64,000 bases of DNA from a virus, in the IMG/VR virus record IMGVR_UViG_3300045988_171102. One strand, 5' to 3'. The position numbers and the translations under genes were made by a program. Positions 9,016 to 39,959 of this stretch are shown here, in pieces (positions within the stretch are counted from its first letter, which is position 1; each line of letters starts with the position of its first letter). Under the pieces are notes generated by a model. That model was not told where the DNA came from. It made no database searches and saw only the letters and a program-made list of their open reading frames with translations.

Positions 9016-9663
9016 TTATTCTTCAGTATCTACAGCCGCTACAAATTCACCATCTTTTAAAGTATAATAAACACCTGCTTTAATTTTATCTCCATCAACT
9101 CTTGTCATCTTTGCACCAACAAATTCCCATCCTTTTTTATTGCTAACATACCGCCATTCAGCACAGACGATATGAGAACCAATACAGCCTTTTGCCTTAC
9201 TTAGATACCCCCAAGCAACAGCCACCCCTGTTGTGTTCTCAACTGAGGACGCTCCTTTATAGCCTGTGGCTGAGGACGCTCCTTTATAGCCTGTAGCTGA
9301 GGACGCTCCGTAATCTCCTGTGGCATTCTGCATTGTGACGGTTTTGGATTTGGTAAAATCTATTGCAGCCTGAACAAGTCCAGCTATGCTTAATTTTGCA
9401 CCAATTTTAATCTTAGTTGATGCAATTTTTGAATCTCTATTATCAGAACCGGATGAAAATTCACCTGTCTGTTCAACTTCATGATATACACTTGTATTTG
9501 GTGAATAATAACCTAAACAATCTAAAGGGTATTCACATGCATGAAATCCTTCATTACAAACAACAGCTTTACTTGTTTCATATTCTTTGCCTTCTTTATA
9601 CTGAAAGCCTCTGCAAGTCATATCTTTATTAAAACCTTTGTAACTTTTAACTACTTTTGACAT
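9016..9663 (-). CDS. hypothetical protein with internal ATG[YD][KY]GASS repeats
   Basis: ORF in track. N-terminal KGFNKDMTCRGFQYKEGKEY...GFHAC block. Three 9-aa repeats. Confidence 0.55.
   Translation of the reverse strand: MSKVVKSYKGFNKDMTCRGFQYKEGKEYETSKAVVCNEGFHACEYPLDCLGYYSPNTSVYHEVEQTGEFSSGSDNRDSKIASTKIKIGAKLSIAGLVQAAIDFTKSKTVTMQNATGDYGASSATGYKGASSATGYKGASSVENTTGVAVAWGYLSKAKGCIGSHIVCAEWRYVSNKKGWEFVGAKMTRVDGDKIKAGVYYTLKDGEFVAAVDTEE
9243..9323. repeat. 3 x 27-bp tandem repeat inside the 9016..9663 CDS
   Basis: CTGAGGACGCTCCTTTATAGCCTGTGG occurs twice nearly identically. A third copy is diverged. Confidence 0.8.
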
Positions 9664-10099: not shown

Positions 10100-10175
10100 T
10101 GGTGACACAGAAGAGATTTGAACTCTCACTTTACAGATTTTAAGTCTGCTGTCTCTGCCGTTGGACTACTGTGTC
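10100..10175 (-). tRNA. tRNA with anticodon UAA (Leu by anticodon) but a short variable loop; CCA encoded
   Basis: Hand-folded cloverleaf. Acceptor GACACAG/CTGTGTC; anticodon stem GCAGA/TCTGT with loop CTTAAAA; T arm GAGAG-TTCAAAT-CTCTT; A73; CCA. Confidence 0.65.
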
Positions 10176-10336: not shown

Positions 10337-10411
10337 TGGCTGAGCAGGCGGGAATTGAACCCACGATACTGGAGTCAAAGTCCAGTGCCTTAACCGCTTG
10401 GCGACTGCTCA
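10337..10411 (-). tRNA. tRNA-Gln (anticodon UUG), CCA encoded
   Basis: Hand-folded. Acceptor TGAGCAG/CTGCTCA with U1:A72 and G73 as in bacterial tRNA-Gln; anticodon stem CTGGA/TCCAG with loop CTTTGAC; T arm GTGGG-TTCAATT-CCCGC. Confidence 0.8.
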
Positions 10412-21724: not shown

Positions 21725-21997
21725 TTAAATCTCCCTATACATTTTCTTTGCGGTTGGTACGCCATACTCTTGAACAAGATTCCAAAGCACATCCAACCCT
21801 TGTATATCTATATGCAAAATTTCTGTCGAATCTACAACACCTTGCAACCAAGCTTGTGCTGTTTCATCTGCAATATTCATGAATTTTCCATATATCTTTT
21901 TACCAGTATCGGATTCTAAAAGAACAGGTAAATCTTTGGAATAAATTTCTTTCCTTGTATATGGTTGTTTCTTTATGATACTTTTTGATCTCCCCAT
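21725..21997 (-). CDS. small hypothetical protein
   Basis: ORF in track; overlaps the end of the methylase-helicase gene. Confidence 0.5.
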   Translation of the reverse strand: MGRSKSIIKKQPYTRKEIYSKDLPVLLESDTGKKIYGKFMNIADETAQAWLQGVVDSTEILHIDIQGLDVLWNLVQEYGVPTAKKMYREI

Positions 21998-24957
21998 CTT
22001 ATTACATAACCTTCTTCCGTTTTTTCTTTATACATGAGGTTCTGCAACATATTACTATCCACTCCAAAACGTTCATATAATTCATCGTCTGTCAAATCCT
22101 GATCCTTCATAAACAGATTTAATTTGTCTTTTACAAGAATCATTTTTAACAGATTGCTTTCAATACTATTCTCGTAAGTTACAAAATACACTTGCTTGAA
22201 TTCCGTTGAAGTATAACGAATAAAGCGGAAATAATACTGACTCATGCTGGAGTTGTTCCAGTGCAATTCTGGAATAATACACTTATTCACAAAATCAATA
22301 TTCATACTTGCAGATAAGCTCTGCTGTGTGCTTATTAGAATTCCGTTTGTTGTTTCTTTTAACTCTTTGACAATTTTCTTTCTCTGTTTCAATGTAGTTT
22401 CATTTCCAGTAATCACAAATACAGGTCTACCCGGAAATGCTTTTTTGATTTCCTTTGCATATGCATCTACTACTGAAATATGACGCACACCAATAGCAAC
22501 TCTTTCATCAGAAAATTCGTCTAAAAGTGATAATACAGTTTTGAATTTTTCCGGCATTATCGACTGATTGTACTCTCTCAACATCTGAGGCGCAGCGCAA
22601 ATCTTCAAAAGTGCAAGCAACTGATTCAAAATTTTCAACATTGCATCTTTCCGGCTGTTCCCAGTTTTCGCAAACAGATATTCCATTTTATAGAACTCAT
22701 CCAATGCAACCTTATACAGACGTTTCTCTTCTTCTCCCATTTCACAAGCAATCTGTATAATCTCATAAAGCTGTTTGCCAGTAATTTCTTCAAATGTACG
22801 TGTGATAATCGTCTTATCAATCATCTGTTTCAAAATGTCTGCATTAAGAATATCTTGTGTGAACTGAGATACGCCAAATACAGTGATTTTCTCTGGAATA
22901 TGACTCGCTGCAAATAACTTACTACCCTTACGATATGCTGGATATGGCTGTAAAAAATATTCATTTATCCGGTTTTCCAGTTCTCCATCTTTGTTGCGTT
23001 CCATAATATACTCACATTCAGACAGCATATTGATAGAATTGTTGTACAATAATTCAAACTGAGGATAAATTTCAGTGATATTATTCCTTGTGCTTGTACC
23101 CGTCATCAGTGTTTTATACTTCAGCCGGCGAAAAGCATTTAATACGGCTTTTGTCCGTTTACTATCCTGATTACTCATATTATCCGATTCGTCAAAAATC
23201 AAAACGGCTTTCTGGCAGATTGATTTTACATATCGCTTGATGAATTTATGATATTTACACATCATATTTAAAGTGATAATTACAAATTGACCTTCTTTGA
23301 TATTTTGAATATCTGCAAGGTTTCCAATCATAACAAAATCAATACCGTACTGATCCAATACATCCTGCCAATTGTTCTTGATTGAGATTGCCGTACTCAC
23401 AATAAATACATTTTTCACATGATCGTGCTGCAAACGATATTTACCTATTGCAATTCCGGCGAATGTTTTACCGCTTCCCTGTTCCCACTGTATGAAACTA
23501 TATGGTTTCTGAATAAACAGATTCAGATCCGCTTTCTGAGCATCATTCAGCTTTATAGTTCTTTCATCATCCGTCAATGTAAACTCATCAAGCCACTTTG
23601 CTATTTTTTTGTTTGGTTGCATTTCAGAAAATGGCATATTCTGGATATCATACATCTTTCGCTTTTTATTCACGATCTTATCAATCCATTTTGACTGAAA
23701 ATGCCCCATTGAAAAGCCTTGCAACACAACATCGTTTATAGATGTAAAATCGCCATTATACTCAAATGTATAATTGTTTTTAATAATTCTACCAGTTCTA
23801 TCAAGTTTTGGATTCTGTGAACATAACGCCATTTTTAAATGCTTAATAACATCTTTCGGCTTGATTTTAAGTTGTTCCCATTCGTCCCATTTGATATGAT
23901 CCGGTTTTTTCTGTGTCTTATACCTATTGACATATTCACAACATTCTGCATACTGGCTGCATGTTTTCGGATTTCGTTTGATATCATACAGGAGTTTCTC
24001 AACCTTAAAACTCCACGCTTCATCGTCTTTACTATTTCTTACGGTTTCCAGAAAAATCTTGTTTTTAATCTGTTCTCTTTCTTCTGTAATAGGCTTTAAA
24101 TACTGCTCCCATACTTCATCGGAAGTAACACCGGAAAGTATCTCTGTACTATATGGAACTTCTTTCGTATATTCAGATTTTTTCTGAAAGAACACTATTT
24201 TGGTCTTGTAGTTCTCAACGCCCAAATGCTTAAAAGTATTCTTGTCAAGTTCTACTTGGCAGATAAAATTAAAATGCTCATTCATTCCGTCAATCATGCC
24301 ACCATCAGAGAAACTGTCAGCACAAAACGACATAGGCACGATAATAGCCATAATTCCGGCTGGCTTTAACAGTTCCGCAGCTTTCAGACAATAATAATAT
24401 TCTGACAAATAGTTACTGTCATCTTTTCTCCATCTCAGATTATACGGTGGATTTCCCAGAACATAATCAAAAGTAATTTTCGGCTCATAAAAACGAATAT
24501 CTGTATTTTCCAGCTTTGCATCTGGATAAAGGTATTTTGCCACTCTGTACGGCTTCCCGTCTAATTCGCAACCGTAAAAATTCGATTCAACCGGCGCACA
24601 ACTAATAAATGAACCATGTCCACAAGTAAGATCTGCTATCAAATCAGTATTTGAAATATGTAAACAATTATAAATCCATTCAACCAGCTTATAAGGTGTA
24701 AAGAACTGTCCTTGCTCAATATCTGCTTTCGCTCTCTGATAATCATAGTAACTATCATAGTTGTTGAACTCTAAACCATGAAGCCCACCTAATCCAGTAT
24801 ATGCATTGAAAATATCATCTTTTGAAATACCTGTTTCTACTTCTGGCAAATCGTTATTCACAATATATTCAATTTTTGTATTGATGTCTTCCCTCATTTT
24901 CTGTGGGATTACTTCATTTGTACATTTATACTTCATGACTTGTATATCTCCATTCAA
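21973..24957 (-). CDS. fusion of N6-adenine DNA methyltransferase (N-terminal) and SNF2-family helicase (C-terminal)
   Basis: Methyltransferase motif I DLTCGHGSF and motif IV GNPPYNLRW. Helicase Walker A QGSGKTFAG, motif II LIFDESDN and SNF2-type motif III LMTGTSTRNN. Confidence 0.8.
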   Translation of the reverse strand: MNGDIQVMKYKCTNEVIPQKMREDINTKIEYIVNNDLPEVETGISKDDIFNAYTGLGGLHGLEFNNYDSYYDYQRAKADIEQGQFFTPYKLVEWIYNCLHISNTDLIADLTCGHGSFISCAPVESNFYGCELDGKPYRVAKYLYPDAKLENTDIRFYEPKITFDYVLGNPPYNLRWRKDDSNYLSEYYYCLKAAELLKPAGIMAIIVPMSFCADSFSDGGMIDGMNEHFNFICQVELDKNTFKHLGVENYKTKIVFFQKKSEYTKEVPYSTEILSGVTSDEVWEQYLKPITEEREQIKNKIFLETVRNSKDDEAWSFKVEKLLYDIKRNPKTCSQYAECCEYVNRYKTQKKPDHIKWDEWEQLKIKPKDVIKHLKMALCSQNPKLDRTGRIIKNNYTFEYNGDFTSINDVVLQGFSMGHFQSKWIDKIVNKKRKMYDIQNMPFSEMQPNKKIAKWLDEFTLTDDERTIKLNDAQKADLNLFIQKPYSFIQWEQGSGKTFAGIAIGKYRLQHDHVKNVFIVSTAISIKNNWQDVLDQYGIDFVMIGNLADIQNIKEGQFVIITLNMMCKYHKFIKRYVKSICQKAVLIFDESDNMSNQDSKRTKAVLNAFRRLKYKTLMTGTSTRNNITEIYPQFELLYNNSINMLSECEYIMERNKDGELENRINEYFLQPYPAYRKGSKLFAASHIPEKITVFGVSQFTQDILNADILKQMIDKTIITRTFEEITGKQLYEIIQIACEMGEEEKRLYKVALDEFYKMEYLFAKTGNSRKDAMLKILNQLLALLKICAAPQMLREYNQSIMPEKFKTVLSLLDEFSDERVAIGVRHISVVDAYAKEIKKAFPGRPVFVITGNETTLKQRKKIVKELKETTNGILISTQQSLSASMNIDFVNKCIIPELHWNNSSMSQYYFRFIRYTSTEFKQVYFVTYENSIESNLLKMILVKDKLNLFMKDQDLTDDELYERFGVDSNMLQNLMYKEKTEEGYVIRWGDQKVS

Positions 24958-25911: not shown

Positions 25912-27741
25912 TTAAAATACAGGCTTATATGTATTGATAATAGGTTTCAATCCTTGTTCCGCAAAGTATTCAAGTATAGCATCATACTGCTTTCTATCAA
26001 ATAATGCCCATTTAGATTTTTGTGTAATACAATGTTCTTTGTATGATATATCAAACAGAACTGTATCAGGAAGGTCATACCATCCATTGTAGATGATAAC
26101 ATCTCCATAAAACCACTTATAATAAAGACCTTTCTTTCTATGCGGCTTGAATGTCATTTTCACAGAATTATCATACTGTGCGTATTGCCCGATTTCGTAA
26201 CTATGAAATGTTACTTTTGATACCGACATCATACCAAAGTCGCTATACTTTACGATTGTGATTCTCTGTCCTGCCTCAAGGTTTGTATTTTTGAATTGTT
26301 CCGCTATGCTGTCAACTTCTGTAAGAACCTTATACATAACCGTTTTAAGTTCGGGAATTGTAATTGCTCTGACAATGCCGGCATTCAACTTGAATTTATT
26401 TGCATAAATCCATTCTTTCATACAAGCCTTATATAAATCAAAATCTTCATCCTGCCATGTCTTTTTGATTTCATTTTGGCTGATAATCTCGGTGCTGACA
26501 TCTTCAATAGTTTCTGCAAGTTCAATATTATGCTGATGTTCTTCTTCACTAATACCATAATCTGAATGGTAAGTGTCAACCTTTTGGCTCTGCTCATCGT
26601 AAACATATACATATCTTGCATAATTGTAACCCTGTGGATCAACGATAAGTTTCAGTTCACCATCACAATATATAGCAACGCAATCAATATTGTACCACTC
26701 GACAGTTTCCCTTTCTTCTTCGGTCATCATATCGTAGTCTATTGATGATTGGATTCTACTGTCATCTGTACGGCTTCCGCCCATTCCATCAAAGAATGAA
26801 TAATCGCTCATCAACTGTTTTTCAAAAAGTGCATAGACCTCTGTGGTAAAATGTACTTCTCTGGAAACCTGACAAGTTTCTCTACACTGTTTTTCATCAT
26901 AAATTTCAGTGTGGTCAAGGTTGTCATCTTTGTTAGCCTTTAGAATGGCATTCACGATAGTATAATCAACCGCTTTAATCTCTGCGTTCTTTTCAATTCT
27001 GCGGATTTTCTTCTGTCGTTCTGCTTCTGCTTTTTCATACTCCGCCTGCCTGATTTTATATTCTTCAACACCTTTTTTAATTCGTTCTTCTTCCTGCTTC
27101 TTTTGTTCGGCATCAAACTCTGATTTTTTTACAAGAAAATCTGTTTCAAGCTCTGTTTCGTTCGGTTTACATTCACGCTGATTATAGTTGTAATTTACAA
27201 TGTCATTTTTATAAACGCCGTAAAAATTGACATCAAAATAATCTGTCATGCTGTCGCTGTTGTCATAATTCCAGCTCTGCGCATATGTATAAGCATAATT
27301 AACAATAGCCTTCAAAGCCTCTGAATTCCGTGAAAATGGGCTTTCAAGCAATTCAACACGAATACTGTTATAATCACTCGTAACCGACCATTTGCACATT
27401 GAAAACCTATTCCGTAAATGTTTACGAATATTGGCAGCAATTTCTTTTGTATTCGTTATGTGGGTTTTACCGTAATTATCTTCAATTCCTTCTGTATGTG
27501 TTAAAGACCATAAGTCAATGTTAGTTTCTGTTTTTGGCTTATACTCAAAACTGCCTTCCGATTCTGAAATTTGATTAGCAAGAGCAACCGTGTCATCGTT
27601 TTGTTTTGCGTACCACATCCGCTGTTTTCCATTCCAACGAAATCCCGCTTCTTTAATGGCAGTAATAACATCTGTATTCGGTTTAGTGTCAAAGCGTAAT
27701 TCAATGCCGTTCTTCTCTGTATTTAATGTAATGTTTAACAT
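25912..27741 (-). CDS. large hypothetical protein (609 aa) with a small N-terminal domain seen in polyvalent proteins of mobile elements, plus a coiled-coil segment
   Basis: N-terminus NGIELRFDTKPNTDVITAIKEAGFRWNGKQRMWYAK. Recalled from memory as a module common in conjugative-element and phage multidomain proteins; not verified. Confidence 0.5.
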   Translation of the reverse strand: MLNITLNTEKNGIELRFDTKPNTDVITAIKEAGFRWNGKQRMWYAKQNDDTVALANQISESEGSFEYKPKTETNIDLWSLTHTEGIEDNYGKTHITNTKEIAANIRKHLRNRFSMCKWSVTSDYNSIRVELLESPFSRNSEALKAIVNYAYTYAQSWNYDNSDSMTDYFDVNFYGVYKNDIVNYNYNQRECKPNETELETDFLVKKSEFDAEQKKQEEERIKKGVEEYKIRQAEYEKAEAERQKKIRRIEKNAEIKAVDYTIVNAILKANKDDNLDHTEIYDEKQCRETCQVSREVHFTTEVYALFEKQLMSDYSFFDGMGGSRTDDSRIQSSIDYDMMTEEERETVEWYNIDCVAIYCDGELKLIVDPQGYNYARYVYVYDEQSQKVDTYHSDYGISEEEHQHNIELAETIEDVSTEIISQNEIKKTWQDEDFDLYKACMKEWIYANKFKLNAGIVRAITIPELKTVMYKVLTEVDSIAEQFKNTNLEAGQRITIVKYSDFGMMSVSKVTFHSYEIGQYAQYDNSVKMTFKPHRKKGLYYKWFYGDVIIYNGWYDLPDTVLFDISYKEHCITQKSKWALFDRKQYDAILEYFAEQGLKPIINTYKPVF

Positions 27742-28003: not shown

Positions 28004-28228
28004 TTACCATTTAATGTTTCCAACTTTGATATAACTATTTTCATACATCATTTCAGCAGTGTCAGATACCTTTATATCTTCCAAAGTGCAATGCTCGGAC
28101 TCTATCTGCTCGAATTGCTCCCGCAAGCCCTCACCAAAAGCAATAGCACATCTTTTATTTACAACTTCCTTTTTGTCTCCCAGATATTTCGTCCGATGTC
28201 CTTTTGCGTGATACTTCACAACAAACAT
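28004..28228 (-). CDS. small hypothetical protein
   Basis: ORF in track; GAGGAGGAA SD upstream. Confidence 0.5.
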   Translation of the reverse strand: MFVVKYHAKGHRTKYLGDKKEVVNKRCAIAFGEGLREQFEQIESEHCTLEDIKVSDTAEMMYENSYIKVGNIKW

Positions 28229-29038: not shown

Positions 29039-29293
29039 TTACTTACTGTAAATTAGTTTGTCGGCTATATCACGCCATTCAAAATTTATATTTAATTTTC
29101 CGTCACAAACATCCCATTGTTGTAACTCGCTGTTAAGTATTGCAGCTAAATCCGATTCCGGATTTTCGTCAACATTTTCAATTAAAGTATCAATTTTTCC
29201 ATCGTAAAAATTTCCTTGTTCCTCATAGTTATAAAGTACAATATTTTCCGTTGTTGTATCTGTTGCCATTTCTAAAAATTCTCTGATTGTCAT
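29039..29293 (-). CDS. small acidic hypothetical protein
   Basis: ORF in track; AAGGAGGAA SD upstream. Confidence 0.5.
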   Translation of the reverse strand: MTIREFLEMATDTTTENIVLYNYEEQGNFYDGKIDTLIENVDENPESDLAAILNSELQQWDVCDGKLNINFEWRDIADKLIYSK

Positions 29294-29320
29294 TCTATTA
29301 TTCCTCCTTGTTTATGTCTG

Positions 29321-29384
29321 GGTTGCCTCATCAGGCAGTGAGCGCCCATCTCACTGCTACGGGCTTTTTCTGCCCGTTTCGCCG
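29321..29384 (-). ncRNA. hammerhead-ribozyme-like core (type II topology); stem II not evident
   Basis: Minus-strand RNA reads C-GAA-ACGGGC(AGAAAAA)GCCCGU-A / GCAGUGAG(AUGGGCG)CUCACUGC-CUGAUGA-G. All core nucleotides are contiguous and the cleavage triplet is GUA. Confidence 0.35.
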
Positions 29385-29583
29385 ATATTACAACGTATTT
29401 TAATTATTTTTAAAATTCTTCTTTTATAAAACAGTAAACGGAACATCAAAAATTAGCGTGTTATAAAATGCAACAATCAATCACTGTTAAAAAAGGATTT
29501 TTGCGTAGCTCATCAACAATTTTTTCATATTCTAAATGTCGTTGATATTCAGACTCATTTAAAATATGACCAAACTGCTTTAT

Positions 29584-29841
29584 TTACATTTCATAAAAAT
29601 CAGTAACATTATGAGGGTAATATAATTTTATACCGTCAGTATATATGTTTCCCCTGTATTCATTCAAGCCGTTATCAGCTAAAACTTTATGCAGTGAAAA
29701 CAATTTTGAAGGCGGTAATTGCATAATTGGTGTTATCCCACGAATTACACCTTTAGTTTTAAGCGTATTAGAATTTTTTACAGTCCACGAATTTCTACTG
29801 ATTTTTATAGAATCAGTTTTTTCAATTTCTGTAATTTTCAT
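29584..29841 (-). CDS. hypothetical protein
   Basis: ORF in track. Confidence 0.5.
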   Translation of the reverse strand: MKITEIEKTDSIKISRNSWTVKNSNTLKTKGVIRGITPIMQLPPSKLFSLHKVLADNGLNEYRGNIYTDGIKLYYPHNVTDFYEM

Positions 29842-37082: not shown

Positions 37083-39959
37083 ATGGCTCAAAGCAAAGCT
37101 GTAAATATACCGTTATTGGACGGTAAAGATGTGTATATTGCAAATCATTATATTAACAATAGTTTGAACGGATATACACTTAGAGACAAATTTGGTGACT
37201 TAAATATAAAGAAATTTGTCGCCACAATGGATTATAGTTTAGACTTAATTAAATTGAATGATGTTTACAAAGAAGTGTATCGAAATAGAAATTTTTATGA
37301 ATATGTTGGCAGAAATAAAAAATATACAAGGCATGTTATAAATGTCACTTTTAAATACAGCAATAAACTTTACAATCGGGCTGGTTCAGGTTTGTATATT
37401 AAATTCGGTTACTCCCCTACCGAAGTTATATTAGAAAATAATGCTTGTATTAAAGATGGTACTTTAATAGCTATTCGAGTATTGCCAGATGGTAAAGAAA
37501 AAAATATTACAGAAGATTATCTTGTGAAGTCTCCCCTTTCACAAGAAATCTTAGGTGAATATTTTTTTTATGATAAAGAATTATCTGTTTATAGAGCTAA
37601 AGATAATATTGAGACATTAACCTCAATTTCTGACATTAGAACTGATTTATATGAAAATGGTTTTGTTTGTGACGGAATTAAGTATGTACGATTTAAACGC
37701 AGTAGTGGTAGCAGTCGTGTAGGTAAATGCCTATTTATTGACGAAAAATTATACAAAAAGATGCATAAATGGGAAATGTGTGGATTAAATGTAAAGAATG
37801 GTGTTAAATGTGATTTGGCGAGTCTTGAGCCTTATATAGCATTAACTCTTTCTTCTATCATAGACACAATAACCATTGAACCAAATGAAATTCTTGTCAT
37901 CCCCGATTATGAAAGCAAATTTACGACAACTTGCGTTGCTACAGAACTTGATAAGGATAATAGACTTATTTCGTCAGCAAAACAAGTTGATATGTCAAAT
38001 AGTATTTGGGATGGACAGTCCTTATTAGATGTTAGTAAATTTGAGGACTACAAAAATTATGGTATGTTGTTATTGCGTACACGTTTTTTTAAATCTGCTT
38101 GTTTTAATACTAATATTCAGCAATGGTTTACTGATAACGGAATCACTGACATATCGCAATTAAATGGATATACTCAAGCCACAAAATTGTCTGATATTAA
38201 ATTAATTACTACTCCAAGCAGTATTAAATATTTAAAATTTGGTTCTTTAGAAGATTGGCTATGGACAATTGAACCACAATTTGGTGTTGTAAAACATGAA
38301 AAGCCTACTCATTATTTTGATGGTAGAATGGTTCAAACACATTATCAATTGCTTAATACTTTACAATTGACGAAAGATGAAGTAGAGAAATTTATTCAAC
38401 CTACAATTGACTATATTATGAAATTGAAAACAGACAGTGCTGTATTTAGGCATCACATTAAATATTCAATTCCTGAATATACAAATGCTGAATCTCAACA
38501 ATTGGCGAATAAAAATGATATTGTATATTACTTGCTTGGACTAAATAATAAATTTAGCCAAACCAAAATGTACAAAGACTTTTGTAATGAAACTGTTAAG
38601 GCATTTGTTAAAAACTGTCGCAAGGGACATATCTTCGTACATGGTAATTATTCAACACTATTTGGCAACCCTATCGAAATGCTACAAAGTTGCATTGGAC
38701 GATTTAATGGAGAACCTAAAATTAAAGCAGGCACAGTACATTGTACGATGTTTAATAATGGTGATAAGTTAATAGGAAGTCGTTCTCCTCATGTTACAAT
38801 GGGAAATATTTTATGTTGTCAGAATGTAATATATGAGGACATTAATAAATATTTTAATTTAAGTAATGAGATAGTATGTGTCAATAGTATTCGTGATAAT
38901 TTATTAGAGAGATTAAGTGGTTCAGATTTTGATTCTGACACTGTTTTGTTGACAGATAATAAAATATTATATCAAGCTGCAATTCGTAATTATGATAATT
39001 TTCTTGTACCGACAAAATTAGTGTCAAGTAAAAAATGTGAGCGTAGATATACGGCACGAGATAAAGCTGAACTTGACATTAAGACAGGAACAAATAAAAT
39101 TGGAGAAATCATTAATTTATCTCAAGAATTAAATTCTAAGTTATGGGAATTAATTTATAACGGATATGATATACAATCAAATGAGGTACAATCACTTTAT
39201 GCTGATATTGCACAATTAGATGTGATGAGCAATTTGGAGATTGATTCAGCTAAAAGAGAAAATCCGGCAAACAATTCTATGGAGCTTAAATTATTAAAAG
39301 CTAAATATGCTGTATATGATAACAAAGGTAGATATGTCCGACCACTATTTTTTAAATATTTGGATAAGTATAAGGGGTATGACAATAATCGAAAACATTA
39401 TCGGCTTTATAATACTACGATGGATTATGTCGAACTTGCTTTAAATAAAATACCTCGTGTAAGAAATAATGCTCCCCTTTTAAATTTATCAGACATTTTT
39501 AAATCATCTAATGCAATTGATGGACAAGTGTATTATGAACAAGTTGAGCGTATATTGTCCGCCATTCAAGATACTAAAGACGAAATTGGTCATTTGTGGT
39601 CAAAGTATAAATCTAAAACTGGGAATGTTAATAAAGGTGAAGATGCTTTCTCTTATGAGCAGTGTTTAAAGATGACAGAAGAAGCAAAAGAAGATTGCGT
39701 AGAATATATTAATTCACTTAAAATTTCTAAAAAAACAATGCGTTATCTTTTATCTTTAATCGAAAAACCCACACATAAAAATTATTCAGCATTATTTTTA
39801 TCAGCAATATTCACTTACCACAATATAAATTTTGATGAATTAGTTGCCGATAGTCAAGAAAATGTATTTCAAATTAAAGAATGTCCGATAGAATCAGAAC
39901 AGTATGACATTAAGTTATATGACTTTAATTACCGATATGTAAGTAATGTGAATACATAA
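37083..39959 (+). CDS. YonO / cellular RdRP-like single-subunit two-barrel RNA polymerase (putative)
   Basis: RSPHVTMGNILCCQNV ... LSGSDFDSDTVLLTDN resembles the catalytic block of RNAi-type RdRPs and their phage homologues (DxDxD metal loop). Confidence 0.65.
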   Translation: MAQSKAVNIPLLDGKDVYIANHYINNSLNGYTLRDKFGDLNIKKFVATMDYSLDLIKLNDVYKEVYRNRNFYEYVGRNKKYTRHVINVTFKYSNKLYNRAGSGLYIKFGYSPTEVILENNACIKDGTLIAIRVLPDGKEKNITEDYLVKSPLSQEILGEYFFYDKELSVYRAKDNIETLTSISDIRTDLYENGFVCDGIKYVRFKRSSGSSRVGKCLFIDEKLYKKMHKWEMCGLNVKNGVKCDLASLEPYIALTLSSIIDTITIEPNEILVIPDYESKFTTTCVATELDKDNRLISSAKQVDMSNSIWDGQSLLDVSKFEDYKNYGMLLLRTRFFKSACFNTNIQQWFTDNGITDISQLNGYTQATKLSDIKLITTPSSIKYLKFGSLEDWLWTIEPQFGVVKHEKPTHYFDGRMVQTHYQLLNTLQLTKDEVEKFIQPTIDYIMKLKTDSAVFRHHIKYSIPEYTNAESQQLANKNDIVYYLLGLNNKFSQTKMYKDFCNETVKAFVKNCRKGHIFVHGNYSTLFGNPIEMLQSCIGRFNGEPKIKAGTVHCTMFNNGDKLIGSRSPHVTMGNILCCQNVIYEDINKYFNLSNEIVCVNSIRDNLLERLSGSDFDSDTVLLTDNKILYQAAIRNYDNFLVPTKLVSSKKCERRYTARDKAELDIKTGTNKIGEIINLSQELNSKLWELIYNGYDIQSNEVQSLYADIAQLDVMSNLEIDSAKRENPANNSMELKLLKAKYAVYDNKGRYVRPLFFKYLDKYKGYDNNRKHYRLYNTTMDYVELALNKIPRVRNNAPLLNLSDIFKSSNAIDGQVYYEQVERILSAIQDTKDEIGHLWSKYKSKTGNVNKGEDAFSYEQCLKMTEEAKEDCVEYINSLKISKKTMRYLLSLIEKPTHKNYSALFLSAIFTYHNINFDELVADSQENVFQIKECPIESEQYDIKLYDFNYRYVSNVNT

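What the first reader, a model, noticed from the sequence alone, without database searches (positions are those of the whole stretch)
29321..29384. Hammerhead-ribozyme-like core in a GC-rich island between two minus-strand genes
The minus-strand RNA reads 5' GGC-GAA-A CGGGC(AGAAAAA)GCCCG U-A | GCAGUGAG(AUGGGCG)CUCACUGC-CUGAUGA-GGCAACCC 3'. All invariant hammerhead elements are present and contiguous. These are G12A13A14, the A15.1:U16.1 pair closing a 6-bp helix III, a GUA cleavage triplet, an 8-bp helix I, C3-A9 as CUGAUGA, and the G10.1/C11.1 pair. Closed helices I and III with an open helix II is the type II topology known from bacteria and phages. The weakness is stem II: beyond the first pair the flanks do not pair well, apart from CAAC with GUUG further out. 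Loop I UGGG could pair with the downstream CCCA as a tertiary contact. If active, the element would cut the polycistronic mRNA between 29584..29841 and 29039..29293.
Basis: partly seen in the sequence, partly recalled or inferred. Interest (0 to 1): 0.7.

Follow-up and report, generated by a model that had tools for sequence, protein, structure and literature searches.

The report
Type II hammerhead ribozyme in phage
A 68-base stretch between two small genes of a gut Clostridia phage is a genuine-looking type II hammerhead self-cleaving RNA, a well-known kind of element in phages, placed just upstream of a gene's ribosome-binding site where some related phages carry a pistol ribozyme instead.

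Summary
On the minus strand at 29317-29384 the window carries every invariant hammerhead element in type II order. These are C11.1, GAA, a 6-bp stem III, the GUA cleavage triplet, an 8-bp stem I, CUGAUGA and G10.1, followed by a tail. Rfam's Hammerhead_II model matches end to end at 36.3 bits against a cut-off of 37 (E=0.0011 for the whole window and all families). Independent, well-formed hammerheads of the same GCC/GGC subtype score 32-46 bits, so the 0.7-bit shortfall says little. The "weak stem II" is typical of the family: published work describes 2-bp and even 1-bp stem II, supported by a pseudoknot between loop I and the tail. The one real defect is a G•G mismatch at 10.2/11.2. Related phage contigs carry three variants of the element. 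Others have a pistol ribozyme (55-57 bits) at the same position before the same gene, and two of those also have twister ribozymes nearby. Of 15 type II hammerheads examined, 14 sit 11-23 nt before a Shine-Dalgarno site. The most likely role is self-cleavage of a polycistronic phage transcript at 29358|29357, which would leave both products capped by hairpins. Activity is untested. This is a new member of a known kind, of modest interest.

The parts
29317..29384 (-). Whole type II hammerhead ribozyme (extent of the Rfam RF02276 match)
   Evidence: cmscan gives 36.3 bits, model positions 1-66 of 66.
29381..29383 (-). Stem II 5' strand: G11.3, G11.2, C11.1. G11.2 faces G10.2, giving a G•G mismatch.
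   Evidence: Sequence. The mismatch is seen only in the window, L002 and L009 among 16 hammerheads.
29378..29380 (-). Core G12 A13 A14
   Evidence: Sequence and CM alignment.
29359..29377 (-). Stem III hairpin: ACGGGC / AGAAAAA loop / GCCCGU, closed by A15.1:U16.1
   Evidence: Sequence. Present in the minimum-energy fold with and without flanks.
29357..29358 (-). Cleavage site: A17 (29358) | G1.1 (29357), in the GUA triplet
   Evidence: Position follows from the hammerhead numbering applied to the sequence. Cleavage itself is inferred, not shown.
29335..29357 (-). Stem I hairpin: GCAGUGAG / AUGGGCG loop / CUCACUGC, 8 bp
   Evidence: Sequence and minimum-energy fold.
29328..29334 (-). Core C3-A9: CUGAUGA
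   Evidence: Sequence. Relatives have CUGACGA, so only the free N7 position varies.
29325..29327 (-). Stem II 3' strand: G10.1, G10.2, C10.3
   Evidence: Sequence. GGC pairs perfectly with GCC in variant T3 and in unrelated hammerheads.
29319..29322 (-). Tail CCCA, the pseudoknot partner of loop I UGGG (29345-29348)
   Evidence: It sits at the same place as the GCCA/UGG pseudoknot of the Rfam consensus and of the published type II consensus. Alone it is not significant (P≈0.19).
29391..29394 (-). Possible outer helix: GUUG pairing with CAAC (29322-29325). Tentative.
   Evidence: Predicted in the 181-nt fold. The middle pair is U:A in T1, U:G in T2 and C:G in T4. It overlaps the pseudoknot by one base and is absent from T3.
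29303..29309 (-). Shine-Dalgarno AAGGAGG of the downstream gene, 20 nt after A9
   Evidence: Sequence. Unpaired in the folded 3' product.
29039..29293 (-). Downstream gene: 84-aa acidic protein (pI 4.05) of unknown function. Its mRNA would start at the cleavage site.
   Evidence: ORF. No family match. pI.
29584..29841 (-). Upstream gene (85 aa, unknown function). Its transcript would end at the cleavage site.
   Evidence: ORF. No terminator-like site on the minus strand between it and the ribozyme.

Best explanation
The element is a type II hammerhead self-cleaving ribozyme in the early or accessory small-gene block of a tailed phage of gut Clostridia. It is transcribed on the minus strand as part of a multi-gene mRNA. 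It folds into stems III and I, a minimal stem II (G:C, G•G, C:G) and a 4-bp pseudoknot between loop I and the tail. It then cuts its own backbone between A17 (29358) and G1.1 (29357). Because of the type II topology, the upstream RNA ends in the stem III hairpin with a 2',3'-cyclic phosphate. The downstream RNA begins flush with the stem I hairpin and a 5'-OH, followed by a 64-nt leader whose Shine-Dalgarno site is free. Only the 2-3 bp of stem II hold the two products together, so they should separate at once. The net effect would be to process the polycistronic transcript and give the downstream 84-aa gene a defined 5' end that does not depend on whatever lies upstream. Shown here: the sequence, the fold, family membership by sequence and structure, and the context. 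Inferred: the catalysis itself and the effect on expression.
For: All core and junction features are present. Rfam Hammerhead_II matches full length at 36.3 bits, E=7.6e-6 locally and 0.0011 for the whole window. A chance descriptor match is about 0.0025 per window. Stems I and III are in the minimum-energy fold, with z = -2.2 and -2.9. The same element with an intact core occurs in related phage contigs as types T2-T4; N7 is the only core position that varies, apart from C11.1 to U in T4. Type T3 has a perfect GCC/GGC stem II and a 5-bp pseudoknot. Across 16 type II hammerheads aligned to the same model, 97.7% of cells pair and 14 of 17 pairs change on both sides. Independent hammerheads show loop I to tail complementarity of different sequence at the same place: ACCU:AGGU, GGUU:AACC, GCCAU:AUGGC, UGGCGU:ACGCCA. 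In L008, L011 and L013 a pistol ribozyme at 55-57 bits occupies the same position in front of the same gene. Twister-P5 lies in nearby spacers of L011 and L013, and L013 has a second pistol. In 14 of 15 hammerheads an SD follows at +11..+23 and a start codon at +20..+38. Folding the products shows hairpins at both ends and a free SD. Published work describes short stem II, the pseudoknot, hammerheads flanking single prophage genes and the transcript-processing proposal (PMC3088659; PMC6765202).
Against: The score is 0.7 bit below Rfam's gathering cut-off, so the default scan does not report it. The G•G mismatch at 10.2/11.2 weakens an already minimal stem II. The 4-bp pseudoknot is not significant alone (P≈0.19). 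In isolation the minimum-energy fold pairs the 5' flank UAUCGG with the core CUGAUG, which competes with the active fold. The lineage variants are too similar for core conservation to be informative: 10 of 65 columns vary, so by my own arithmetic there is about an 11% chance that 13 core positions escape change. Several relatives look degraded. T2 and T4 have a bulged stem I, T3 has a C•A mismatch, T4 has G10.1:U11.1 and a broken pseudoknot, and L005/L006 keep only the 5' third. So the element is dispensable in some relatives. No cleavage or expression data exist.
Confidence: 0.7

Rival explanations
1. It is a decaying or inactive hammerhead relic. The element descends from a real ribozyme, but in this phage it no longer cleaves efficiently, because of the G•G mismatch in stem II and a competing helix. 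It persists only as a structured spacer.
For: The G•G mismatch is unique to T1, T2 and T4 among 16 hammerheads. The minimum-energy fold shows an alternative helix that sequesters CUGAUG. Relatives show progressive damage, and L005/L006 are truncated. Close relatives that lack the 84-aa gene have no hammerhead match (R1), and the ten of them scanned with Rfam have no ribozyme at the gathering score.
Against: The window's copy is the best-formed of the lineage. It has perfect 8-bp and 6-bp stems, a canonical CUGAUGA, and the only canonical minimum-energy fold. A 1-bp stem II with a pseudoknot is active in vitro (PMC3088659). The Rfam score is mid-range for this subtype.
Confidence: 0.2
2. It is a DNA-level element, such as a recombination or module-junction site made of GC-rich inverted repeats, and the resemblance to a hammerhead is secondary.
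For: Homology breakpoints between relatives fall at the edges of the element or inside it. T3 differs from T1 immediately 5' of C11.1. L077 and L096 diverge right after the pseudoknot tail. L005/L006 break in loop III.
Against: The sequence satisfies a 66-position RNA covariance model strand-specifically, on the same strand as the genes. At the same site other phages have pistol, an unrelated RNA fold with the same chemistry. That argues the conserved property is RNA cleavage and not a DNA sequence. No recombinase gene was noticed among the ORFs around it.
Confidence: 0.05
3. It is a chance look-alike or a different kind of structured RNA, for example two adjacent hairpins that serve as an RNase or protein-binding site or as a stabiliser, with no catalytic role.
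For: The score is below Rfam's curated threshold. No U-tract terminator and no other function was identified, so a generic 'hairpin pair' cannot be formally excluded.
Against: The expected number of chance matches is about 0.001-0.0025 per window. All 13 core nucleotides are correct and in order. The genomic setting is typical for phage ribozymes.
Confidence: 0.03

Closest known systems
Hammerhead ribozyme type II (Rfam RF02276; Perreault et al. 2011, PMC3088659)
   Same: It has an identical catalytic core, the GUA site and the type II topology with stems I and III closed. It also shares the minimal stem II, the pseudoknot between loop I and the nucleotides just 3' of stem II, and the location between small genes of a phage or prophage.
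   Different: It scores 0.7 bit under the curated cut-off. The 3' strand of stem II is GGC, which the Rfam model treats as a one-base insertion relative to its 2-bp GC consensus. It carries a G•G mismatch at 10.2/11.2. This exact sequence (type T1) was not found in any other contig searched.
Pistol ribozyme (RF02679) in sister phages L008, L011-L013
   Same: It occupies the same position in the 5' UTR of the homologous 84-aa gene (88-94% identical protein). It has the same chemistry (self-cleavage giving a 2',3'-cyclic phosphate and a 5'-OH) and the same orientation.
   Different: It is a completely unrelated fold and sequence. It lies about 65 nt from the start codon, against about 24 nt from the end of the Rfam match to the start codon for the hammerhead. 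The window itself has no pistol match.
Clustered hammerheads flanking prophage genes (Perreault 2011, Fig. 3), and the shared gene contexts of hammerhead and twister ribozymes (review PMC6765202)
   Same: Ribozymes bracket single small genes of variable identity. [quoted passage not shown]
   Different: This window has a single recognisable ribozyme and not an array. Arrays are seen in other contigs: three hammerheads in L074, and three ribozymes in 3 kb in L013.
RiboJ-type synthetic insulators (a hammerhead placed in a 5' UTR to cut off upstream context; from my own knowledge)
   Same: A hammerhead sits immediately upstream of an RBS, so that cleavage would give the downstream cistron a fixed 5' end headed by a hairpin.
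   Different: RiboJ is an engineered element derived from sTRSV. An insulating function for the natural phage element is only inferred here.

Membership tests
Hammerhead ribozyme, type II (RF02276) | Core strand C3-U4-G5-A6-N7-G8-A9 | tested here: met
   CUGAUGA at 29334-29328. Relatives have CUGACGA, so only N7 varies.
Hammerhead ribozyme, type II (RF02276) | Core strand G12-A13-A14 | tested here: met
   GAA at 29380-29378.
Hammerhead ribozyme, type II (RF02276) | A15.1:U16.1 pair closing stem III, followed by a non-G nucleotide H17 at the cleavage site | tested here: met
   A 29377 pairs with U 29359, and H17 is A 29358, giving the GUA triplet.
Hammerhead ribozyme, type II (RF02276) | G10.1:C11.1 pair opening stem II | tested here: met
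   G 29327 pairs with C 29381. This pair is C:G in 15 of 16 aligned hammerheads.
Hammerhead ribozyme, type II (RF02276) | Three-way junction with stems I and III closed by loops and stem II open (type II permutation) | tested here: met
   The order is 11.x-GAA-hairpin III-H17-hairpin I-CUGAUGA-10.x. Both hairpins are in the minimum-energy fold.
Hammerhead ribozyme, type II (RF02276) | Stem II of at least about 2 base pairs | tested here: inconclusive
   The pairs are G:C, G•G, C:G, so two pairs are split by a mismatch. The alternative reading is 2 contiguous pairs with a bulged G after A9, as the CM aligns it. The mismatch is absent from 13 other hammerheads. The literature shows a 1-bp stem II can be active.
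Hammerhead ribozyme, type II (RF02276) | Pseudoknot of 4 bp or more between loop I and the nucleotides just 3' of stem II (present in most type II members) | tested here: met
   UGGG (29348-29345) pairs with CCCA (29322-29319), starting 2 nt after stem II, at the same place as in the Rfam consensus. It is not significant alone, at P≈0.19. Independent hammerheads show 4-6 bp of different sequence at this place.
Hammerhead ribozyme, type II (RF02276) | Covariance-model score at or above Rfam's gathering cut-off (37 bits) | tested here: not met
   The score is 36.3 bits. Sister hammerheads of the same GCC/GGC subtype score 32.3-45.6 bits, and several well-formed ones score 35.7-36.5. The cut-off is an operational filter and not a biological criterion.
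Hammerhead ribozyme, type II (RF02276) | Presence of the core in homologous loci | tested here: met
   T2 (L001, L002, L028, L093), T3 (L007, L010, L077, L089-L091, L094, L096) and T4 (L009, L015, L088, L095) keep the core. L005/L006 are truncated and L003/L004 lack it.
Hammerhead ribozyme, type II (RF02276) | Site-specific self-cleavage giving 2',3'-cyclic phosphate and 5'-OH ends | not testable with these tools
   This needs in vitro transcription and cleavage assays, or RNA end mapping.
Pistol ribozyme (RF02679) | Covariance-model match at this locus in the window | tested here: not met
   No pistol hit in the window at E≤1. Pistol is present at the homologous site only in L008, L011 and L013.

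The most novel reading that the evidence does not exclude
In this phage lineage, self-cleaving ribozymes of any class (hammerhead, pistol, twister) might act as portable 5'-UTR insulators that travel with accessory-gene cassettes or mark their junctions. Cleavage would free each newly acquired small gene from its upstream RNA context and cap both products with hairpins. That would explain why homology breakpoints coincide with ribozyme edges and why the classes are interchangeable at one locus.
Probability: 0.3. Interest if true: 0.6.

Novelty: new member of a known kind. Interest (0 to 1): 0.3.

Why it matters
Type II hammerheads in phages and prophages have been known since 2011, and thousands exist, so this one adds a member and not a concept. 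Its value is as a clean natural test case for the open question of what bacterial and phage self-cleaving ribozymes are for. One 84-aa gene is preceded in sister phages by a hammerhead (in four graded states of integrity), by a pistol ribozyme, by a truncated hammerhead or by nothing. That series could be used directly to test whether cleavage changes the stability or translation of the downstream message. It also shows that Rfam's default cut-off misses a whole GCC/GGC-stem-II subtype by a fraction of a bit.

Tried and rejected
(1) A strict helix descriptor found the motif only in the window. This was an artefact: the relatives have a bulge or mismatch in stem I, and a looser search and the alignment recovered them.

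(2) I first guessed that the GC-rich element in L008 and L011-L013 was twister-like. Rfam shows it is pistol.

(3) Testing pseudoknot significance one sequence at a time against shuffled tails gave non-significant results for most sequences. I therefore rest the pseudoknot on positional consistency across independent hammerheads and on the published consensus, not on the window alone.

(4) Core conservation within the lineage is uninformative, because the variants are about 95% identical.

(5) I rejected a long-range anti-SD helix, UGUUCC 29445-29440 with GGAAUA 29304-29299, that appeared in the centroid fold. The upstream arm is deleted in the collinear relative L009.

(6) A sigma-70-like promoter lies just upstream (29430-29403). 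Promoter-like hits in the region are not above shuffles (8 against 9.7 expected), so I make no claim.

(7) No terminator-like site lies on the minus strand near the element, so a terminator reading is rejected.

(8) A nucleotide search of GenBank phages with the 4-kb region found no match.

(9) Weinberg 2015 and Roth 2014 are not held in the library. I used the 2019 review and the pistol paper instead.

(10) The MAFFT alignment of divergent hammerheads (A2) was not in structural register. I replaced it with a CM-guided alignment (A5).

Full report
**What is in the sequence**

On the minus strand, 29388-29312 reads AUAUCGGC GAA ACGGGC-AGAAAAA-GCCCGU A GCAGUGAG-AUGGGCG-CUCACUGC CUGAUGA GGCAACCCAGACAUAA. 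In hammerhead numbering:
- C11.1 is 29381 and G12A13A14 is 29380-29378.
- Stem III has 6 bp, is closed by A15.1:U16.1, and spans 29377-29372 paired with 29364-29359.
- Stem I has 8 bp, 29357-29350 paired with 29342-29335.
- C3-A9 is 29334-29328, and G10.1 is 29327.

The element is a GC island, 0.54 against 0.31 for the window. It is one of only two non-coding GC islands in the 64 kb; the other is a tRNA. It lies between two minus-strand ORFs, 29584..29841 and 29039..29293, and ends 24 nt before the downstream ATG. The Shine-Dalgarno AAGGAGG is at 29309-29303.

**Is it more than chance?**

Rfam's default gathering scan reports only two tRNAs. With permissive filters the Hammerhead_II model (RF02276) matches 29317-29384 on the minus strand over its full length (1-66/66) at 36.3 bits, against a cut-off of 37. 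The E-value is 7.6e-6 for the local region and 0.0011 for the whole window, both strands and all 4227 families. As an independent estimate I used a descriptor requiring C11.1-GAA-A15.1…U16.1-H17…CUGANGA-G10.1 with two closed helices. It hit once, weakly, in 400 shuffled windows, and never with helices totalling 14 bp as observed.

**The stem II problem**

Perreault et al. 2011 (PMC3088659) report three relevant facts:
[quoted passage not shown] The Rfam consensus encodes exactly this: a two-pair stem II and loop I UGG facing tail GCCA.

Taken alone, four pairs are not significant (P≈0.19 against shuffled tails). However, independent type II hammerheads recovered from viral and metagenome contigs show complementarity of different sequence at the same place. 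Examples are ACCU:AGGU, GACC:GGUC, GGUU:AACC, UGGC:GCCA, GCCAU:AUGGC, CGCCA:UGGCG and UGGCGU:ACGCCA.

These hammerheads typically have a three-pair GCC/GGC stem II. The window has GGC/GGC, which gives G:C, G•G, C:G. In a CM-guided alignment of 16 hammerheads, the only unpaired cells at 10.2/11.2 are the window and its close variants L002 and L009. That mismatch is the real peculiarity of this copy.

An outer GUUG (29394-29391): CAAC (29325-29322) helix is predicted when flanks are included. Its middle pair runs U:A (T1), U:G (T2) and C:G (T4) across the variants. This hints at a compensating extension. It rests on three sequences, overlaps the pseudoknot by one base and is absent from T3, so I treat it as tentative.

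**The sub-threshold score**

Independent hammerheads of the GCC/GGC subtype score 32.3-45.6 bits against RF02276. Several well-formed ones are just under the cut-off: L087, with a 6-bp pseudoknot, scores 36.1; L085 scores 36.5; L086 scores 35.7. The model treats the first G of GGC as an insertion, which I infer costs this subtype a little score. The window's 36.3 bits is mid-range for the subtype, so the 0.7-bit shortfall is not evidence against membership.

Over the 16 aligned hammerheads, 97.7% of cells pair and 14 of 17 pairs change on both sides. The covariation score is 0.80, against 0.18 for shuffles and 0.06-0.11 for slid controls. The caveat is that this alignment is fitted to the model.

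**Homologues**

The window is a tailed phage genome, with a portal, a scaffold-like protein, an exonuclease and a fused methylase-helicase. The helicase is closest to Clostridium phage D-1873 (47% identity) and to human faecal phage contigs.

Searching IMG/VR with the 84-aa downstream protein and the 609-aa neighbour gave 64 loci. Upstream of the 84-aa gene the relatives fall into classes:
- **T1:** the window only. Perfect stems and CUGAUGA.
- **T2:** L001, L002, L028, L093. A one-base deletion bulges A1.3, the core reads CUGACGA, and the tail is GUUCA, which still pairs with UGGGC through two G:U pairs.
- **T3:** L007, L010, L077, L089-L091, L094, L096. Perfect GCC/GGC stem II, a 5-bp pseudoknot, and a C•A mismatch in stem I.
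- **T4:** L009, L015, L088, L095. G10.1:U11.1 and a broken pseudoknot.
- **L005 and L006:** only the 5' third of the hammerhead remains, followed by an inserted small ORF.
- **L003 and L004:** no ribozyme.
- **L008, L011 and L013:** a pistol ribozyme at 54.8-57.1 bits (cut-off 34.5) at the same place. L012 has the same sequence at this site in the alignment but was not itself scanned with Rfam.

L011 and L013 also carry Twister-P5 (54.2 and 50.5 bits), and L013 has a second pistol (62.4 bits) in neighbouring spacers.

The catalytic core is intact in T1-T4, apart from C11.1 changing to U in T4. The variants are about 95% identical, so this conservation is not informative statistically (my arithmetic gives about an 11% chance). 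Only T1 has the canonical stems as its minimum-energy fold. Close relatives that lack the 84-aa gene have no hammerhead match, and the ten scanned with Rfam have no ribozyme at the gathering score.

**Context and mechanism**

The ribozyme is on the same strand as the whole 1-32 kb gene block. No terminator-like site separates it from the upstream ORF, so read-through transcripts should contain it.

Of the 15 type II hammerheads examined, 14 are followed by an SD at +11 to +23 and a start codon at +20 to +38 after A9. The pistols and twisters in the relatives are likewise followed by an RBS and start codon within about 30-65 nt. These ribozymes are therefore 5'-UTR elements of the downstream cistron.

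The type II topology places the scissile bond between two closed hairpins. Folding the predicted products shows that the upstream RNA ends in the stem III hairpin plus A17. The downstream RNA begins flush with the 8-bp stem I hairpin, and its SD is unpaired. The pseudoknot lies wholly within the 3' product, so only the 2-3 pairs of stem II join the two products. I infer rapid and effectively irreversible release.

The best-supported function is the published proposal for prophage hammerheads: processing of long phage transcripts into single-gene mRNAs with altered stability or translation (PMC3088659; PMC6765202). Here that would give the 84-aa gene a fixed 5' end whatever lies upstream.

Two observations fit a role that depends on cleavage and not on a particular RNA:
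- The upstream context differs among relatives.
- The same hammerhead precedes a different gene in L077 and L096, with the break immediately after the pseudoknot tail.

**Caveats**

No activity data exist. The G•G mismatch may lower activity, as may a competing helix between the 5' flank UAUCGG and the core CUGAUG. The damaged or truncated copies in relatives show that the element is dispensable. I therefore keep "inactive relic" as the main rival, at about 0.2.

**Verdict**

This is a genuine type II hammerhead by every sequence and structure criterion that can be tested here. It sits in a typical phage setting and was missed by Rfam's default threshold by 0.7 bit. It is a new member of a known kind and of modest interest. 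Its main value is the natural series at one gene's 5' UTR (hammerhead, pistol, truncated hammerhead, nothing), which could make the function of phage ribozymes testable.

Noticed in passing
L008 1581-1653; L011 2864-2936; L013 2864-2936 and 808-875; L011 1660-1722; L013 2098-2158: Sister phage contigs carry pistol ribozymes (55-62 bits) and Twister-P5 ribozymes (50-54 bits) in successive spacers of the same small-gene block. L013 has three ribozymes within about 3 kb. One pistol sits exactly where the window has its hammerhead.
   Followed up: partly
L023 3768-3855; L026 3763-3850: A SAM-I (S-box) riboswitch at 58.7 bits (cut-off 44.4) lies about 2 kb upstream of the 609-aa gene homologue in two related phage contigs. 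A phage-encoded riboswitch deserves a look.
   Followed up: no
L005 and L006, about 2880-2930 (alignment A1, columns 270-330): A truncated hammerhead, CGGCGAAACGGUCAGAAAG, keeps only stem II, the GAA core and the 5' arm of stem III. The rest is replaced by an inserted small ORF that is also present in L003/L004. This is a recombination breakpoint inside the ribozyme.
   Followed up: partly
L077 1460-1536 (minus strand); L096 1368-1423: The T3 hammerhead precedes a different gene (MTIEKLWKSAC…), with homology ending right after the pseudoknot tail. The ribozyme is therefore shared between different gene cassettes.
   Followed up: partly
L074 36-110, 926-1000, 1884-1962; L085 1260-1331, 1590-1668, 4876-4945, 5407-5479; L071 7304-7365, 8370-8433, 9347-9409: Unrelated phage contigs carry arrays of three or four type II hammerheads spaced about 0.3-3.5 kb apart, each just before an RBS. 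This matches the 'ribozymes flanking single genes' pattern in the literature.
   Followed up: partly
window 10100-10175 and 10337-10411 (minus strand): The phage encodes two tRNA genes, tRNA-Leu(UAA) and tRNA-Gln(UUG).
   Followed up: yes
window 29039-29293 (minus strand): The gene served by the ribozyme encodes an 84-aa, strongly acidic protein (pI 4.05; 19 D+E against 6 K+R). It has no Pfam, PHROG, NCBIfam or PDB match. In relatives it is preceded by a hammerhead, a pistol or a hammerhead remnant in 11 of 13 loci.
   Followed up: partly
window 21973-24957 and 25912-27741 (minus strand): There is a fused N6-methylase and SF2 helicase of 994 aa (PHROG 24008, with weak DarB-like antirestriction hits). 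Next to it is a 609-aa protein with an LPD29 'large polyvalent protein' domain. Both are features of anti-restriction or polyvalent proteins.
   Followed up: no
window 37083-39959 (plus strand): A 958-aa ORF matches PHROG 8308 (unknown function, E=1.5e-98) and has a faint hit to a PHROG annotated as RNA-dependent RNA polymerase (E=1.5e-5). It could be an unusual phage polymerase.
   Followed up: no
Rfam RF02276 consensus as printed: In the cmscan structure line, the two stem II brackets sit over 'gG' and 'Gc'. That is one column 5' of the canonical C11.1:G10.1 and G11.2:C10.2 pairs. The window's G-G 'pair' is not flagged as non-canonical. The family's stem II annotation may be shifted by one column, but this is only my reading of the output.
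   Followed up: no
window 9203-9324 and 28081-28142: These are the only other GC-rich islands in the window (56% GC or more over 50 nt). Both lie inside ORFs, 9016..9663 and 28004..28228.
   Followed up: no
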